A program made the translations under genes and the position numbers. A model generated the notes under the pieces. It was not told the origin of the DNA, did no database searches, and worked only from the letters and a program-made list of their open reading frames with translations. Below, one piece after another: positions 3,907 through 13,590 of a DNA stretch of 64,000 nucleotides. Each line of letters begins with the position of its first letter. The first letter of the stretch is position 1. The DNA is from a virus (taxonomy: Duplodnaviria > Caudoviricetes), in the IMG/VR virus record IMGVR_UViG_3300025892_000008, one strand, 5' to 3'.

Positions 3907-4998
3907 TTACCACTTCCTACATGACCAGTAACGTGCTTTTGTACGCGGTCCTGGATTATCACAGTTGTGTCTTGCTCTAAAAGATTTTCTACGCTTAGGA
4001 TTAGATTTCTTAATACGCATATTTGGATCACCAAAGTTTACTTTTTTAATGTTCTTAGTTTTTGGATCACGTACATATACTTTAAACTTCTTAACATCGC
4101 CTTGCATAGGCTTGCCAAGTTTTACTTTGCGTCCTTGGTATTCTGCTTCGTCTACAATATCTTCATGCCAAGGTAGGTATCCGTAATACTCATAGAACTC
4201 CTCACCTTCGAATGTTTGCTCATCTTCTTCGTTAGTATCCAAGCCAGAAAGTTCTTTAACTCGATTAAGTTCTTCGTTATTAGTTGATTCATCAGCGTCA
4301 CCTGACTGAACTTTATCAATAATTCTTGCATTCGTATCAATGTCATCATCGCCTGTAATTTTTTCAATTTCATCCAGAAACGCTTTTGTAATTGGCATTT
4401 CGTCAACGTGTCCTAGCGGATCATTTTCAAATTCTTCTTCGCCGTATTTTTCCCTCATTGCTTCAGCCTCATTTTCTTCAACAAAGTCTGTAGTAATGCC
4501 TGAGTTCAATGCCCACTGTATGTAACCGTCTGGTAATCTGTCTCCGTTACCGCCTCTGAACTTAGAGAATTTTTCAACCAAATCGGAAATCATTCCATAC
4601 ATTTCATTTGAAACTTCACTACTATTTTCACCTACGTTTTCACCTTGCGAGTATTTGTTATCACGTTCAGCGTATTGTTCTTCAGCATCTTCTTGAGCTG
4701 AACGTAGTATTTCTTCTGCGTCTACACCACCATAATTCATAATCATATCTGTATCATTTTGCACATCATATCCTAATTTACTACTTGGATTATTACCATA
4801 TGCGTGTACTTCAATTGATTTTGGATCTACTACTGGTTTGCCATCTACTATTTTAGCAGTATAATGGATGTCGGCTCCTTCTGGTTCACCATCATCTCCG
4901 GATACTTCGAAGTCTTCAATCTCACCTTTAAATTCTTCAGGATCAAATCCCTCTTGGGTTGACTCAAATAGTGTAAGTTTATTCAGTAGGTCTCGCAT
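3907..4998 (-). CDS. Acidic protein with basic C-terminal RKSFRARHNC...YWSC module
   Basis: 363 aa; Glu/Asp-rich body and Lys/Arg-rich tail. Confidence 0.75.
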   Translation of the reverse strand: MRDLLNKLTLFESTQEGFDPEEFKGEIEDFEVSGDDGEPEGADIHYTAKIVDGKPVVDPKSIEVHAYGNNPSSKLGYDVQNDTDMIMNYGGVDAEEILRSAQEDAEEQYAERDNKYSQGENVGENSSEVSNEMYGMISDLVEKFSKFRGGNGDRLPDGYIQWALNSGITTDFVEENEAEAMREKYGEEEFENDPLGHVDEMPITKAFLDEIEKITGDDDIDTNARIIDKVQSGDADESTNNEELNRVKELSGLDTNEEDEQTFEGEEFYEYYGYLPWHEDIVDEAEYQGRKVKLGKPMQGDVKKFKVYVRDPKTKNIKKVNFGDPNMRIKKSNPKRRKSFRARHNCDNPGPRTKARYWSCRKW

Positions 4999-9840: not shown

Positions 9841-10140
9841 CTACTTATCTGATTTTTTAGATGTACCTGTGTACAATCCAAACCAAGCAGCACCAGCACC
9901 AACTACAATACTAATTAAACCTGATTGTTCCATAGTAGGAGTAGGTAAATTCATATACCAAATTACACACTTGTATAATAACACAATGTATACAGTTAAG
10001 AATAATCTTGGAAATATTCTCCAAGCATCAACTGCTTTGGCTAAATGAATTAATCCTTGATATGGATTTTGTGAACTATCAGTAGTTGTTGTATCTACTT
10101 CAAGATCAATTTGTACACTCTTTTTAATTGGATCGCTCAT
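9841..10140 (-). CDS. Small two-TM membrane protein, holin candidate
   Basis: Two hydrophobic segments; lies just downstream of the spanins. Confidence 0.5.
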   Translation of the reverse strand: MSDPIKKSVQIDLEVDTTTTDSSQNPYQGLIHLAKAVDAWRIFPRLFLTVYIVLLYKCVIWYMNLPTPTMEQSGLISIVVGAGAAWFGLYTGTSKKSDK

Positions 10141-10173: not shown

Positions 10174-10557
10174 TTATTCAGTTGTGGCTTCTTTTTCGCC
10201 TTCATAATATTCACGATACTGTTCAAGTGTTAATCCTTGTTGTATCATATAAGCACGTATTTGTGCGAAGTTTTTAGATAATAATTCGTAATCTTCGTCA
10301 CTTAAACCAAACAGTACAGGGTCTTTGCCTTGCTCTTTCATTTTAGCAAATACTTCTGCTGCATTTTCTGAAGTGATTATGATCCAACGAACTTCCTCTA
10401 ATTTAGGAGTTTCAGGATTAGCAAGATTAAGAGGTGCTCTTTCTACTTCAGTTTTAAATACGTCTAACTTTGATACAGTGCTGCAACTAGTAAGGAACGT
10501 AGTTAGGATTAGCAAGACTAGGGCACTCAGAATTGATCTGTGATTTCTTAGTAGCAT
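10174..10557 (-). CDS. o-spanin-like lipoprotein (Rz1-like)
   Basis: Signal peptide with FLTSC lipobox; overlaps the end of the i-spanin gene. Confidence 0.7.
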   Translation of the reverse strand: MLLRNHRSILSALVLLILTTFLTSCSTVSKLDVFKTEVERAPLNLANPETPKLEEVRWIIITSENAAEVFAKMKEQGKDPVLFGLSDEDYELLSKNFAQIRAYMIQQGLTLEQYREYYEGEKEATTE

Positions 10558-10972
10558 TTTTCTCTTTCTCCGTTAGTGGTGCGCCCATAGCAATTTCTAC
10601 ACATCTCATTGCTTTTTTGGTTGCGCTGTTAACAACACGTTCAACTGATGTTGGACGTTCTTCGGCAAGTTTTCCTATATCACGGACCTCACCTTGTCCG
10701 TTTATCTTATTAAAACGTTTGTCAAGTGCTTTGAATTCTGTTTGCAATACTCTGTTCTTATCTTCAAGTTCTTTGTTAGCAGACAATATAGCAGTAAAAT
10801 CTTTTTTCTGTTGTTCAATTACAGACTGTTGTTCAGACACACTGTCTAATAGTTTAGCATTATTTGCTTCACTAGTTGCAAGATCAGACTTTAATGTTTT
10901 TACATACAAAAAGCCGCCGCCTGCACCTGCTAACATAATTACAATCATCGCTATTTTAATTGATCCAAACAT
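10487..10972 (-). CDS. i-spanin-like protein (Rz-like)
   Basis: N-terminal TM helix, long coiled coil, C-terminal Cys pair; downstream of the endolysin. Confidence 0.7.
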   Translation of the reverse strand: MFGSIKIAMIVIMLAGAGGGFLYVKTLKSDLATSEANNAKLLDSVSEQQSVIEQQKKDFTAILSANKELEDKNRVLQTEFKALDKRFNKINGQGEVRDIGKLAEERPTSVERVVNSATKKAMRCVEIAMGAPLTEKEKNATKKSQINSECPSLANPNYVPY

Positions 10973-11187
10973 TATGCTTCTACCAGTTTAATAAAGTCGC
11001 CAACAGTTTGAACGTTGGCTTCGTCTTCTTCTGAAATTGTTACACCTGTTGCTTTTTGAATAGCAACTGCTAACTCGATAATATCAAATTCATCAGCACC
11101 TAAATCGTCCATTAAATTTGCTTCTGGTACAACTTTAGATTCATCAATACCTAAGTGTTCTGCTACTGCTTTAATTACTTTTTTCAT
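10972..11187 (-). CDS. Acyl carrier protein homologue lacking the phosphopantetheine Ser
   Basis: Clear ACP pattern, but DLGADEFD in place of DLGADSLD (codons gat gaa ttt gat checked in the sequence). Confidence 0.85.
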   Translation of the reverse strand: MKKVIKAVAEHLGIDESKVVPEANLMDDLGADEFDIIELAVAIQKATGVTISEEDEANVQTVGDFIKLVEA

Positions 11188-11314
11188 CTACTTTTTCCTC
11201 TTGGTAACGTGGATATGTACAAACAATTATTTCTATTGGTTTGTTGTCTCCATCCATAAATGTTTCGATTAATCTGCCTTCGTGTGCTCTTCCACAATTT
11301 TGACAGGTAAGCAT
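11171..11314 (-). CDS. 47-aa Cys/His peptide, possible Zn binder
   Basis: Hand translation MLTCQNCGRAHEGRLIETFMDGDNKPIEIIVCTYPRYQEEKVDEKSN; TAATG coupling to the endolysin stop. Confidence 0.6.
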   Translation of the reverse strand: MLTCQNCGRAHEGRLIETFMDGDNKPIEIIVCTYPRYQEEKVDEKSN

Positions 11315-12180
11315 TAGTCTAACAGTTTTTCCAATGTTGCAGGACCAGCAATGCCATCAGCAACTAAGCCATTTGACATTTGCCATTGCTTCAATGCACG
11401 TTCAGTGCCAGGACCAAAGTCACCGTCAGCGCCAATACCTAATGCTTCTTGCATCATCTTAACACCTTCGCCTTTACATCCTTTACGTAGTACACCGATA
11501 TCATCAACATCAATGTGTCCTTCGTCTGTACCTAAATCGTCTGCATCCATACCTAATACTTTAAGTGCGTGTGCATAACGCTTTTGTCTATCTTCTAAAC
11601 CAATGTTACCGCCATTGATCTTTTTAGTCATTTTAACTACATTGTCTGTGTCAGCAATATTGTTAAGTTTAGTTGTGTCCCAGAACCAACAAGCACTTTC
11701 AATTGCACCTGCAGGAGTTGCAACATAATCTGATGCTTCCTCTGCTGTCTTACCAATACTTTCGCCAAACTTTGTATAGTTGTAACGACCAGTAAGTTGT
11801 TTTAATCCACGTCCACGGAATCTCCATCCGTCACCTTCGTTAACATTACCCATCTTGTATTTGCGATATGTGTCATTGTATACACGGTTAGCAATCATTT
11901 CTGGGTTACGAGCATACTCTGCTGCATCTGCTTTTGGAGCATTACCAAAGTAACGACCAAACACTGCACGTAATGCCTTTTCACTGTAGTTTAAATTTTC
12001 TTCTAATTTTTTAAAGCCTGCACTTTCGTGAGCGCACTGACTTAGGAAGTGTGCTACTCTACGTTCTGTTGTGATACCATACTTAGGTAATAGTTCACAT
12101 AGCGCATCATACCAGTTATCAGGATTATCAGAAATAATCTCTCCTAGGTGCGCTTTAGTAAATTCAAATTCAAAACTCAT
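11314..12180 (-). CDS. Endolysin: GH19 chitinase/lysozyme-like domain + C-terminal peptidoglycan-binding domain
   Basis: AHFLSQCAHES, FRGRGLKQLTGRYNY, and PG-binding ADGDFGPGTERALKQWQ...DGIAGP. Confidence 0.9.
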   Translation of the reverse strand: MSFEFEFTKAHLGEIISDNPDNWYDALCELLPKYGITTERRVAHFLSQCAHESAGFKKLEENLNYSEKALRAVFGRYFGNAPKADAAEYARNPEMIANRVYNDTYRKYKMGNVNEGDGWRFRGRGLKQLTGRYNYTKFGESIGKTAEEASDYVATPAGAIESACWFWDTTKLNNIADTDNVVKMTKKINGGNIGLEDRQKRYAHALKVLGMDADDLGTDEGHIDVDDIGVLRKGCKGEGVKMMQEALGIGADGDFGPGTERALKQWQMSNGLVADGIAGPATLEKLLD

Positions 12181-12923
12181 TTTGTATCCTTTAATTTTAG
12201 AACCATTGTTTTTGATTCATTAGTAAACAAAAATTTGTCGCCGTATTTTTGTATGTTATAGTCTCCCATAACTTTAGTTAACCAGAAAATTTCTGCTGTA
12301 GCATTATCATCTACTTGAATATCTTCCATACCTTCAATTAGTTTATCATCACCTTCTTGAACAAGTTCAAACTCAACTTTGATATCAAATGGTTTAATTA
12401 TTGTTATTTTGTTATTTTCTAAAACTAAATCATCCATTAGTGTCTTAGTAAAGAAACTTTTAACTTCGTCAGTTCTAAATTTAGTCATAACTTGTTCGTA
12501 CATTTTCTTACTTGACGGAATCTTTCTCAAATTTTCTGTAGTAACAGACATTTTATCTTTATTTTTATAATACTTATATTCCCAATCTAAAATATTTGTT
12601 AACTTGCTTATACCAAAAACCATTTCCATAATGTTTTCTGCTAGTTTGTTATTTCTTTCTACTTCAACAAAAATAGAATATTCTCCATCTTTGTTTTCTC
12701 CTGCACTAACATCTGCATCTAGTACAAAAGGATATCCTTTCTCAATAAACTCCATAAAGTCTTTTGCAGGATTTCTATCTTTTGCTTGGAAAGTTACAAC
12801 ACAAACATCTGGGTCTTCACCCATTTTTGATTTATGTGTATCTACTTCCATCATAGGATAAAACATATCCTCTAAATCGTGTTTTCTCAAACCTTCTTCT
12901 AAAACTTTATTATTGTGCTTCAT
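12177..12923 (-). CDS. Hypothetical protein
   Basis: Long ORF; probable start MKHNNKVLEEGLR. Confidence 0.65.
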   Translation of the reverse strand: MKHNNKVLEEGLRKHDLEDMFYPMMEVDTHKSKMGEDPDVCVVTFQAKDRNPAKDFMEFIEKGYPFVLDADVSAGENKDGEYSIFVEVERNNKLAENIMEMVFGISKLTNILDWEYKYYKNKDKMSVTTENLRKIPSSKKMYEQVMTKFRTDEVKSFFTKTLMDDLVLENNKITIIKPFDIKVEFELVQEGDDKLIEGMEDIQVDDNATAEIFWLTKVMGDYNIQKYGDKFLFTNESKTMVLKLKDTK

Positions 12924-13431
12924 CTGGTGTTCCTTGTGCAGTTTGGTCAACTGGTTCTGGATTTTGTGCTTGTACTGAATTTGATAAAATGTCTTGTACT
13001 TTATTCTTATCTAAATTACTATAACCCCTGTCAACATTTTTCATAAGTGTTTTAGGCATTTTAATTTTTACCAACCATACTTGATTGTAATCAACTTTAC
13101 CTTTTCTTGTGCCTGGACGTATATCATCTGGTGTTTTAATTCTTCTTACATTAGCCATAGCAGTTTCAGCATAAGAAACTTTACAACCATACTCCATTAA
13201 TCTCTTACCGCCTGCAGGCTCTGGCATCTTATCATTAGGCCACATAAATGTACACGTAATATAATACCTGTCTTCTTTAGGACCTTCTGCTAATTCACCA
13301 TCGATCCAGTTGTCGAATACGTAAAGGTCAAGTTCATCAACAACACGCTCAAAGTCCTTTAATAGGTTTAAACTGTTGTTAGAACCGTAAATTTGTTCTA
13401 TATTTGATATAATGTCTTTAATGCTGGCCAT
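12910..13431 (-). CDS. Hypothetical protein
   Basis: ATG at 13431 preceded by GGAG; TAAATA at 13447-13452. Confidence 0.65.
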   Translation of the reverse strand: MASIKDIISNIEQIYGSNNSLNLLKDFERVVDELDLYVFDNWIDGELAEGPKEDRYYITCTFMWPNDKMPEPAGGKRLMEYGCKVSYAETAMANVRRIKTPDDIRPGTRKGKVDYNQVWLVKIKMPKTLMKNVDRGYSNLDKNKVQDILSNSVQAQNPEPVDQTAQGTPDEAQ

Positions 13432-13590
13432 GTTAGTCTCCACAAGTATTTATCGTTTTCTAAATGTTATACTATTATTTTCTTTTTACGAACTTAAATA
13501 ATAGTATGTTCGATAACGGACTTTTGACAATCTATACATACCCACACTCTGTTGTTGAGCATATTTCACTAACGGAGGAAAACCCCTAAT

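What the first reader, a model, noticed from the sequence alone, without database searches (positions are those of the whole stretch)
10972..11187. Acyl carrier protein mimic with the essential Ser replaced by Glu, embedded in the lysis cassette
Seen: an otherwise typical ACP reads DLGADEFD at the DSL site, and lies between the endolysin and the i-spanin with overlapping start/stop codons. Known: ACP needs phosphopantetheine on this Ser, it feeds fatty acid, phospholipid and lipid A synthesis (PlsB/PlsX, LpxA/LpxD) and binds SpoT and MukB, and excess apo-ACP is toxic in E. coli. Inference: a non-loadable decoy that blocks envelope lipid synthesis to help lysis, or occupies ACP-dependent host or defence proteins. 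The intact reading frame argues against decay.
Basis: partly seen in the sequence, partly recalled or inferred. Interest (0 to 1): 0.8.

Follow-up and report, generated by a model that had tools for sequence, protein, structure and literature searches.

The report
Serine-less acyl carrier protein beside phage spanins
A widespread group of large marine phages keeps, usually next to its cell-bursting genes, a copy of the bacterial fatty-acid carrier protein that has lost the one serine needed to carry anything, so it must work by binding other proteins; which ones is still unknown.

Summary
ORF 10972-11187 (minus strand, 71 aa) is a confident acyl carrier protein (ACP) fold. Its phosphopantetheine serine is replaced by Glu33 (codon GAA, 11089-11091).

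This is neither an error nor a private mutation. All 59 metagenomic homologues (43-100% identity) lack the serine. The main clade uses all four Glu/Asp codons, two closer forms have Gly or Pro, and dN/dS is about 0.2.

The gene sits in an overlapping string: endolysin, a 47-aa Cys/His mini-protein, ACP-like, i-spanin, o-spanin. Adjacency to the spanins holds in three of four marine subclades. It recurs in cultured RaK2-like jumbo phages, whose ACP keeps the serine. One subclade has the gene elsewhere.

The first half of the recognition helix (Asp, Asp, Glu) is kept. The second half, with a Glu invariant in the nearest ordinary ACPs and a core Phe, is remodelled.

Best reading: a selected, non-carrier ACP mimic that acts by binding, most likely on a subset of host ACP clients. 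A block of envelope lipid synthesis is plausible but untested. Similar Glu/Asp-for-Ser ACP paralogues also occur in bacteria. Other readers of this scan noted the same stretch.

The parts
10972..11187 (-). Serine-less ACP-like protein, 71 aa
   Evidence: PF00550 40.3 bits. PDB ACPs to E 3.3e-15. AF2 pLDDT 95.6, four helices. Foldseek TM 0.9 to ACPs. dN/dS 0.15-0.25.
11089..11091 (-). Codon GAA = Glu33, at the position of the phosphopantetheine serine (E. coli Ser36), first residue of helix II
   Evidence: Sequence. Alignments. Relatives use GAA, GAG, GAC and GAT. The 24 nearest Ser-bearing ACPs all have Ser here.
11171..11314 (-). 47-aa mini-protein with invariant Cys4, Cys7, His11 and Cys32 (possible zinc knuckle); overlaps the endolysin stop by 1 base and the ACP-like start by 17 bases
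   Evidence: Conserved directly upstream of the ACP-like gene in all 12 IMG/VR loci. No Pfam, PHROG, NCBIfam or PADLOC match. Absent from the two more distant subclades.
11314..12180 (-). Endolysin, GH19 catalytic domain plus PG_binding_1
   Evidence: PHROG 181 E 2.4e-71; PF00182 and PF01471. In many relatives a GH108-like muramidase fills this slot.
10487..10972 (-). i-spanin (N-terminal membrane helix, coiled-coil periplasmic part)
   Evidence: PHROG 739 Rz-like spanin E 3.9e-12. Best cultured match is Pelagibacter phage HTVC008M, 51%.
10174..10557 (-). o-spanin lipoprotein (lipobox LTSC), overlapping the i-spanin 3' end
   Evidence: PHROG 812 E 4.1e-8. Translation.
9841..10140 (-). 99-aa protein with two predicted membrane helices and a basic C-terminus; candidate holin (inferred)
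   Evidence: PHROG 10198, unknown function. 97% identical to relatives at dS 0.93, dN/dS 0.03.
12177..13443 (-). Two virion structural protein genes heading the same-strand gene string. The TAAATA motif at 13447-13452 lies just upstream, outside this span.
   Evidence: PHROG 13138 and 12928 'virion structural protein'. Homologues in RaK2-like and PA5oct-like jumbo phages. Motif read. Promoter function not tested.

Best explanation
This is a functional, non-carrier descendant of housekeeping ACP. It keeps the four-helix fold and the acidic first half of the recognition helix (the equivalents of E. coli Asp35, Asp38 and Glu41). It has lost the serine that receives phosphopantetheine, so it cannot carry acyl chains. 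It has also remodelled the second half of that helix and swapped core aromatic residues. It is made together with the endolysin and the spanins, probably late and in quantity.

The most likely mechanism is binding. It would dock through the retained acidic patch onto a subset of the proteins that normally bind host ACP, occupying them without delivering a substrate.

Shown: fold, loss of serine, conservation, selection, gene linkage. Inferred: cytoplasmic location, late expression, binding to host ACP clients, any effect on lipid synthesis.
For: Fold and origin. Pfam, PDB and Foldseek matches are all to fatty-acid-synthesis ACPs. The best NCBIfam models are housekeeping AcpP.

No acceptor serine anywhere in the lineage. 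All 59 homologues lack it. Glu/Asp are encoded by all four codons. Two closer forms, at 63% and 59% identity, carry Gly (P0069) or Pro (P0109, a 64-aa form that diverges from the family after about residue 50).

Purifying selection. dN/dS is 0.15-0.25 at dS 0.55-1.2. The protein stays 82% identical where DnaJ, PDF and a structural protein fall to 34-42%.

Retained docking residues. D28, L29, A31, D32, F34, D35 and E38 are invariant.

No second ACP domain in the 64-kb window, and no ACP-using enzyme among the immediate neighbours.

Co-expression. Start and stop codons overlap along the gene string.

Background from my own knowledge, not tested here: overproduced unmodified ACP is toxic in E. 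coli and inhibits glycerol-3-phosphate acyltransferase (Keating, Carey and Cronan 1995).

Precedent for an essential serine-less ACP acting by binding: Plasmodium mitochondrial ACP (PMC8547962).
Against: No binding partner was identified. The host is unknown, and the i-spanin match to a Pelagibacter phage is only a hint.

The mimicry is imperfect. A Glu invariant in 24 of 24 of the nearest Ser-bearing ACPs is Gln, Asp or Ser here, the next acidic residues are Lys or Ala, and the core Phe is Thr. In E. coli, the E47A/E48A change already blocks recognition by AcpS (abstract of bioRxiv 2025.01.28.635281).

Some partners need the prosthetic group itself: E. coli IscS does not bind S36T ACP (PMC13343975).

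Late expression is inferred from position only. A decoy would have to compete with a very abundant host protein.

The recurrent placement beside spanins could instead point to a phage-internal partner.
Confidence: 0.45

Rival explanations
1. It is an accessory of the phage's own lysis machinery. In this reading the ACP fold has been co-opted as a small acidic cytoplasmic factor that regulates or chaperones the spanins or the candidate holin. This is comparable in logic to T4 RIII, a small cytoplasmic protein that acts on the holin (from my own knowledge).
For: The gene is adjacent to the spanin pair in the window, in all 12 close loci, in the 43-50%-identical subclade where endolysin and mini-protein are absent from the site, and in the Gly-variant contig, where it follows the o-spanin. 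An ACP gene also sits directly upstream of a one-helix membrane protein plus o-spanin lipoprotein in RaK2-like jumbo phages. Their spanins show no BLAST similarity to these, and their ACPs form a separate clade. The authors of PMC7760394 remarked on that adjacency. Flavobacterium jumbophages carry duplicated ACPs in an island with lipoproteins (PMC13573597).
Against: The i-spanin has only about four cytoplasmic residues, the o-spanin is exported, and the ACP-like protein has no signal peptide, so the mature proteins are in different compartments. A 76%-identical subclade has the gene away from the spanins. Homologous spanins in Pelagibacter phage HTVC008M and in Vibrio phage phiKT1024 have no ACP beside them, and HTVC008M has no PP-binding domain anywhere. 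Conserved gene order among related phages is weak evidence of a physical link.
Confidence: 0.2
2. It is a virion-associated or otherwise structural late protein, packaged or co-purifying with particles, whose role is exerted at the next infection rather than at lysis.
For: The gene string begins with two virion structural protein genes. In Eneladusvirus phages the ACP was detected by mass spectrometry of purified virions (PMC7760394).
Against: That evidence comes from a distant, serine-bearing ACP. In phage CBB the genes at the spanin positions next to its ACP are annotated 'structural protein', which may mean membrane debris in the preparations. Nothing here tests packaging.
Confidence: 0.1
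3. It modulates iron-sulfur cluster supply. It would bind the host cysteine desulfurase as ACP does in E. coli and, through ISD11, in mitochondria. That would uncouple Fe-S assembly from fatty-acid status to feed the phage's many radical SAM enzymes.
For: The window encodes seven radical SAM proteins, an A-type Fe-S carrier and a superoxide dismutase. Relatives carry an IscU-like scaffold gene (identified by reading the ORF translation) between the o-spanin and the 99-aa membrane protein. E. coli ACP binds IscS through Asp35 and Asp38, both retained here (PMC13343975). Plasmodium serine-less ACP binds Isd11-Nfs1 (PMC8547962).
Against: E. coli IscS binding is lost in S36T ACP and is modelled to need the phosphopantetheine arm. 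No desulfurase was seen among the strong Pfam hits of the window, and LYR proteins were not specifically sought. The gene is not next to the Fe-S genes in the window.
Confidence: 0.07
4. It is a decaying or neutral remnant of an acquired acpP gene, or still a carrier through a non-canonical attachment site.
For: The defining residue is lost. Scores fall below the NCBIfam AcpP cut-offs.
Against: The frame is intact in dozens of lineages, dN/dS is about 0.2, 19 columns are invariant across 43-100% identity, and the model is confident. The other serines (17, 52) are not conserved.
Confidence: 0.04

Closest known systems
Housekeeping bacterial acyl carrier protein AcpP (PF00550; TIGR00517 / PRK00982)
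   Same: Same length, same four-helix fold (TM 0.9, rmsd 1 A). About 40-50% identity to bacterial AcpPs. Same DLGAD..D..EL start of helix II and the same TVGD motif in helix IV.
   Different: No acceptor serine (Glu). Leu-to-Phe next to it. The Glu invariant in the nearest AcpPs and the core Phe in the second half of helix II are lost. Below every NCBIfam AcpP cut-off. Encoded by a phage among lysis genes, with no fab or pls genes among its immediate neighbours.
Plasmodium falciparum mitochondrial ACP (Ser replaced by Phe; Falekun et al. 2021, PMC8547962)
   Same: An ACP that has lost the phosphopantetheine site yet is retained and essential, acting purely by protein binding.
   Different: Eukaryotic organelle protein. 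Its partner is the LYR protein Isd11 with Nfs1. Its replacement residue is hydrophobic. No LYR protein or desulfurase is known in this phage.
ACP of RaK2-like jumbo phages (Eneladusvirus, Mimasvirus: pEa_SNUABM_12, Serratia BF, GAP32, CBB, XbC2)
   Same: A phage ACP placed directly upstream of a two-component spanin pair. These phages share at least one virion protein family with the window phage.
   Different: The serine is retained (LDSLD). They have an extra N-terminal region of about 55 residues. They form a separate, well-supported clade (99/88) and are only about 32% identical. Their spanins are not detectably homologous. Function unknown; detected in virion preparations.
Other annotated phage ACPs (Vibrio 1.187.O, Brevundimonas Bajun, Burkholderia BCSR5, Erythrobacter R6L)
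   Same: PP-binding domain proteins encoded by phages.
   Different: All keep the serine and lie among hypothetical genes, not next to spanins.
Bacterial Glu/Asp-for-Ser ACP paralogues found here (Oscillospiraceae plsX-acp-rnc locus; a 1-Mb proteobacterial MAG next to fabD; Verrucomicrobia; a cyanobacterium)
   Same: Same DLGAD[ED]FD signature. They group weakly with the marine phage forms in the tree (83/83).
   Different: Chromosomal, at lipid-synthesis loci or fused to larger proteins. The search pattern required the motif, so how common they are is not measured. I found no description of them in the papers searched.

Membership tests
Acyl carrier protein (PP-binding, PF00550) | Four-helix bundle carrier fold | tested here: met
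   AF2 pLDDT 95.6 with helices 2-12, 33-47, 53-57, 62-70. Foldseek TM 0.81-0.95 (mostly about 0.9) to solved ACPs.
Acyl carrier protein (PP-binding, PF00550) | Profile match above the curated threshold | tested here: met
   40.3 bits against a cut-off of 20.8.
Acyl carrier protein (PP-binding, PF00550) | Conserved serine of the DSL motif that receives 4'-phosphopantetheine | tested here: not met
   Glu33 in the window. Glu, Asp, Gly or Pro in every relative. Ser in 24 of 24 of the nearest Ser-bearing ACPs.
Acyl carrier protein (PP-binding, PF00550) | Actual phosphopantetheinylation and acyl loading | not testable with these tools
   Needs mass spectrometry or an AcpS/Sfp assay.
Housekeeping AcpP (TIGR00517, PRK00982 models) | Score above the NCBIfam equivalog or subfamily cut-off | tested here: not met
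   Best scores are 66.7 against 71, and 54.7 against 70.45 for TIGR00517.
Housekeeping AcpP (TIGR00517, PRK00982 models) | Fully conserved acidic recognition helix II (E. coli D35, D38, E41, E47, E48) and core F50 | tested here: not met
   The first three are kept. The E47 equivalent is Gln, Asp or Ser. E48 and E49 equivalents are Lys or Ala. The F50 equivalent is Thr.
Housekeeping AcpP (TIGR00517, PRK00982 models) | Genomic association with fab or pls genes or other ACP-using enzymes | tested here: not met
   Neighbours are endolysin, spanins, DnaJ, PDF and virion proteins. No ACP-dependent enzyme appears among the 25 strongest Pfam families of 60 window proteins, but 35 weaker families were not listed and three quarters of the genome was not available.
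Two-component spanin lysis cassette (as an integral member) | Neighbouring genes are a true i-spanin and o-spanin pair | tested here: met
   PHROG 739 and 812, an N-terminal membrane helix, a lipobox, and overlapping genes.
Two-component spanin lysis cassette (as an integral member) | The ACP-like gene always travels with the spanins | tested here: inconclusive
   True in three of four marine subclades and in RaK2-like phages. False in the P0041 subclade. Homologous spanins occur without an adjacent ACP, and HTVC008M has no PP-binding domain at all.
Serine-less ACP acting as an Fe-S assembly subunit (Plasmodium mACP type) | Loss of the serine with retention under selection | tested here: met
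Serine-less ACP acting as an Fe-S assembly subunit (Plasmodium mACP type) | Binding to an LYR protein and cysteine desulfurase complex | not testable with these tools
   No partner identified. Host unknown.

The most novel reading that the evidence does not exclude
Phage and bacterial 'DEF-type' pseudo-ACPs form an undescribed class of ACP mimics. They would regulate membrane and envelope lipid synthesis by occupying ACP-client enzymes such as PlsX/PlsB or LpxA/LpxD. In large marine phages the mimic would be co-expressed with the spanins to shut down membrane synthesis or repair at the moment of lysis.
Probability: 0.2. Interest if true: 0.8.

Novelty: new variant of a known kind. Interest (0 to 1): 0.6.

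Why it matters
ACP is one of the most connected proteins in bacteria, with clients in fatty acid, phospholipid, lipid A, biotin and lipoate synthesis, plus SpoT, MukB and IscS. A virus-encoded copy that cannot be loaded, yet has been kept under selection across an abundant oceanic jumbo-phage lineage, would be a natural probe for which ACP contacts do not need the acyl arm. It could also be a new host-takeover or lysis-support tactic.

The recurrence of an ACP gene beside unrelated spanins in cultured RaK2-like phages makes the question testable at the bench with existing phage-host pairs. The bacterial Glu/Asp-for-Ser paralogues at plsX and fabD loci suggest the phenomenon is wider than phages.

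Tried and rejected
1. Complex prediction of the ACP-like protein with the 47-aa Cys/His neighbour gave no support (score 0.00, controls not run). This is neither for nor against binding.

2. No close cultured phage was found by DNA search. No whole genome is held for the window. The 267-kb scaffold carrying a 99%-identical gene could not be searched whole, so a phosphopantetheinyl transferase or a second, serine-bearing ACP elsewhere in the genome is not excluded.

3. The apparent loss of the spanins in that scaffold is only an assembly gap of Ns.

4. PADLOC gave no defence-system match for the ACP-like protein, the mini-protein or the 99-aa membrane protein.

5. Sigma-70-type promoter scans were at chance level. 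Terminator-like sites exceeded the shuffles (8 against a mean of 2.4) but none was followed up. TATAAATA is not enriched. The TAAATA at 13447-13452 sits too close to the ribosome-binding site to be called a promoter with confidence.

6. The phosphate-mimic idea (Glu or Asp standing in for the phosphodiester) was considered and down-weighted. Two closer forms have Gly or Pro, and all four residue types are typical of helix N-termini.

7. Orthology of the marine and RaK2-like ACPs cannot be decided because the tree backbone is unresolved with 81 columns.

8. Literature searches for a described serine-less phage ACP found none.

Full report
THE FEATURE

The minus-strand ORF 10972..11187 encodes 71 residues. 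It matches Pfam PP-binding above threshold (40.3 bits against 20.8) and the PHROG family annotated as phage acyl carrier protein. It also matches solved ACPs of fatty acid synthesis (Aquifex 2ehs at E 3.3e-15, then Thermotoga, Brucella, Helicobacter and E. coli). In every printed alignment the ACP motif DLGADSLD is matched by DLGADEFD in the query. The Glu codon is GAA at 11089-11091.

An AlphaFold2 model built on 26 relatives has pLDDT 95.6 and the canonical four helices, and residue 33 opens helix II.

NOT AN ERROR, NOT A PRIVATE MUTATION, NOT DECAY

A word-indexed search of 5.8 billion proteins returned 59 homologues from JGI, ENA, Logan and Tara marine assemblies. Some are seen on more than 150 contigs, on contigs of up to 272 kb. 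None has serine at the site. They carry Glu or Asp, including a second group at 43-50% identity. That search is biased towards shared words, so I also ran an unindexed phmmer search of 1.84 billion representatives. It added two closer forms: P0069 (63% identity) with Gly at the site, and P0109 (59%, a 64-aa form that diverges after about residue 50) with Pro.

In the main clade the site is encoded by GAA, GAG, GAC and GAT, so it has changed repeatedly without leaving the acidic class. Pairwise dN/dS is 0.15-0.25 at dS 0.55-1.2. Nineteen columns are invariant across 43-100% identity. Between the window and the L006-type relatives the protein stays 82% identical, while DnaJ, peptide deformylase and a virion protein fall to 34-42%. 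The gene is clearly under selection.

HOW TYPICAL THE REST OF THE PROTEIN IS

The best NCBIfam models are the housekeeping AcpP models, but all score below their cut-offs. I compared it column by column with the 24 nearest serine-bearing ACPs.

- The first half of the recognition helix is retained: the equivalents of E. coli Asp35, Asp38, Glu41 and Leu42.
- The neighbour of the lost serine is always Phe where the ACPs have Leu or Ile.
- The Glu that is invariant in those ACPs (E. coli Glu47) is Gln, Asp or Ser.
- The next two acidic positions are Lys, Asn or Ala.
- The core Phe (E. coli Phe50) is Thr.
- Phe appears at the position of E. coli Ala68.

My reading, which is inference, is that the acyl pocket has been refilled and that only part of the ACP docking surface is preserved. 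The residues seen at the former serine (Glu, Asp, Gly, Pro) are all favoured at helix N-termini. Structural capping therefore explains them at least as well as mimicry of the phosphodiester.

GENE CONTEXT

On the minus strand the order is:

- two virion structural proteins (12910..13443, 12177..12950)
- a GH19 plus PG_binding_1 endolysin (11314..12180)
- a 47-aa protein with invariant Cys, Cys, His, Cys (11171..11314)
- the ACP-like gene
- the i-spanin (10487..10972)
- the o-spanin (10174..10557)
- a 99-aa protein with two predicted membrane helices (9841..10140)
- DnaJ, peptide deformylase and ClpA

Stops and starts overlap from the endolysin through the o-spanin.

LINKAGE ACROSS RELATIVES

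All 12 IMG/VR loci keep the order mini-protein, ACP-like, i-spanin, o-spanin. This holds even where the endolysin has been replaced by a GH108-like muramidase.

The 43-50% subclade has no mini-protein and no endolysin at the site. It still has ACP-like, i-spanin and o-spanin in an overlapping row. The Gly-variant contig has the ACP-like gene immediately after the o-spanin. A 76%-identical subclade, however, has the gene between homologues of window genes at 17.5-18.1 kb: a mini-DnaE, a basic protein, the ACP-like gene, a GroES-like protein and MazG. The spanin link is therefore frequent but not obligatory.

A PARALLEL IN CULTURED PHAGES

A paper on Erwinia jumbo phages notes an ACP gene near the spanin-like gene, and reports the ACP in virion mass spectrometry (PMC7760394). 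I checked the records. In pEa_SNUABM_12, GAP32, XbC2 and CBB, a 134-138-aa ACP lies directly upstream of a one-helix membrane protein and an o-spanin lipoprotein. These ACPs keep the serine (LDSLD) and have an N-terminal extension of about 55 residues. They form their own clade (99/88) apart from the marine forms, although the tree backbone is unresolved. Their spanins show no BLAST similarity to the window's.

The window phage shares a virion protein family with RaK2-like, PA5oct-like and Vibrio 2.275.O jumbo phages, so distant common ancestry of the phages is likely. ACP is patchy within that group, though: Vibrio 2.275.O has none, and RaK2 and 121Q did not appear. Whether ancient or convergent, ACP next to spanins in two lineages is the best hint that the placement means something.

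Other phage ACPs (two Vibrio phages, Bajun, BCSR5, R6L) keep the serine and are not near spanins. The window's spanins have homologues in Pelagibacter phage HTVC008M (51%) and in Vibrio phage phiKT1024 and related Vibrio phages (30-33%), with no ACP beside the two loci I inspected. HTVC008M has no PP-binding domain anywhere.

MECHANISM

What is shown: a folded, selected, serine-less ACP co-located and translationally coupled with lysis genes. Everything beyond that is inference.

I favour a binding role on host ACP clients (confidence 0.45). The protein is a close derivative of housekeeping AcpP and keeps the acidic residues most partners use. It has no cognate enzyme nearby, and there is only one ACP domain in the window. 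Unloadable ACP is known to be harmful to E. coli (my own knowledge). The remodelled half of helix II argues for a narrowed or shifted target set rather than a general decoy.

The rivals are as follows:

- An accessory of the phage's own lysis proteins (0.2). This is favoured by the spanin linkage and disfavoured by compartment logic and by the subclade where the gene sits elsewhere.
- A virion-associated protein (0.1).
- A modulator of Fe-S assembly (0.07). It is attractive because the window carries seven radical SAM genes, an A-type carrier and a superoxide dismutase, relatives carry an IscU-like gene beside the cassette, and E. coli ACP binds IscS through Asp35 and Asp38. That binding is lost in S36T ACP, however (PMC13343975).
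- Decay or a non-canonical carrier (0.04).

A complex prediction with the 47-aa neighbour gave no verdict and is not used as evidence.

WIDER OCCURRENCE

A pattern scan of one genome per prokaryotic species recovered chromosomal ACP paralogues with the same Glu/Asp-Phe signature.

- In four Oscillospiraceae or Clostridia MAGs the gene lies before RNase III, and between plsX and rnc in the two with upstream sequence. In the one genome searched, a serine-bearing ACP sits elsewhere beside sugar-modification genes.
- In a 1-Mb proteobacterial MAG it sits next to fabD and is the only PP-binding hit.
- In Verrucomicrobia it forms the C-terminus of a 345-aa protein.
- In a cyanobacterium it lies inside a 229-aa protein.

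The unindexed search also showed tandem ACP proteins with one Ser and one Glu domain. The scan required the motif, so frequency is unknown. I found no paper describing these forms.

NOVELTY AND VERDICT

Phage ACPs are annotated but unexplained, and a serine-less functional ACP is known from Plasmodium (PMC8547962). A conserved serine-less ACP clade in abundant marine jumbo phages, mostly tied to the spanins, appears to be undescribed in the literature I could search. I class it as a new variant of a known kind, with interest 0.6.

Other first-stage readers of this scan flagged the same stretch in overlapping windows.

Noticed in passing
window 9841-10140 (-): A 99-aa protein with two predicted membrane helices and a basic C-terminus (PHROG 10198, unknown function). 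It is 97% identical to relatives in which DnaJ is about 45% identical. dN/dS is 0.03 at dS 0.93. It is a candidate holin under unusually strong constraint.
   Followed up: partly
window 11171-11314 (-): A 47-aa ORF with invariant Cys4, Cys7, His11, Cys32 and a DGD motif. It is always immediately upstream of the ACP-like gene in the close clade and has no family match in any library. It may be a zinc knuckle.
   Followed up: partly
L031 3980-4213; L030, L032, L034; L036 about 4001-4198; L027 3185-4222; L033 3596-4285: Bacterial chromosomal ACP paralogues with Glu or Asp in place of the serine. They occur before rnc in four Oscillospiraceae/Clostridia MAGs (between plsX and rnc in L031 and L032), next to fabD as the only PP-binding hit in a 1-Mb proteobacterial MAG, and fused into larger proteins in Verrucomicrobia and a cyanobacterium.
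   Followed up: partly
L016 5099-6252 (Erwinia phage pEa_SNUABM_12); L022, L023, L024: RaK2-like jumbo phages place a serine-bearing ACP of about 134-138 aa, with an N-terminal extension, directly upstream of a one-helix membrane protein and an o-spanin lipoprotein. The membrane protein is probably the i-spanin that the published annotation reported as missing.
   Followed up: partly
window 11314-12180 versus L006 4367-4894: The endolysin slot is swapped between relatives. It holds GH19 plus PG_binding_1 in the window and L003, and a 175-aa GH108-like 'holin-associated muramidase' in most other loci. The flanking genes stay in place.
   Followed up: partly
L006 6226-6645 (-): Relatives carry an IscU-type Fe-S scaffold gene, identified by reading the ORF translation, on the opposite strand between the o-spanin and the 99-aa membrane protein. 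The window has an A-type carrier and a superoxide dismutase at 32.3-33.6 kb and seven radical SAM genes.
   Followed up: no
L013 9192-12446: The 43-50% subclade encodes a 1084-aa protein with CarboxypepD_reg and outer-membrane beta-barrel domains (TonB-dependent-receptor-like) just downstream of its spanins. This is an unusual gene for a phage.
   Followed up: no
window 10487-10972; L025 3001-3534: The i-spanin's best cultured match (51%) is in Pelagibacter phage HTVC008M, where the homologous region is annotated as two short ORFs. This is a hint, no more, that the host may be SAR11-like.
   Followed up: no
window, several genes: The window encodes a DAHP_synth_1-family (KdsA-type) synthase, cytidylyltransferases, GDP-mannose dehydratase-like enzymes and a phosphomannomutase. 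These are sugar-nucleotide, and possibly Kdo-type, biosynthesis genes in a phage.
   Followed up: no
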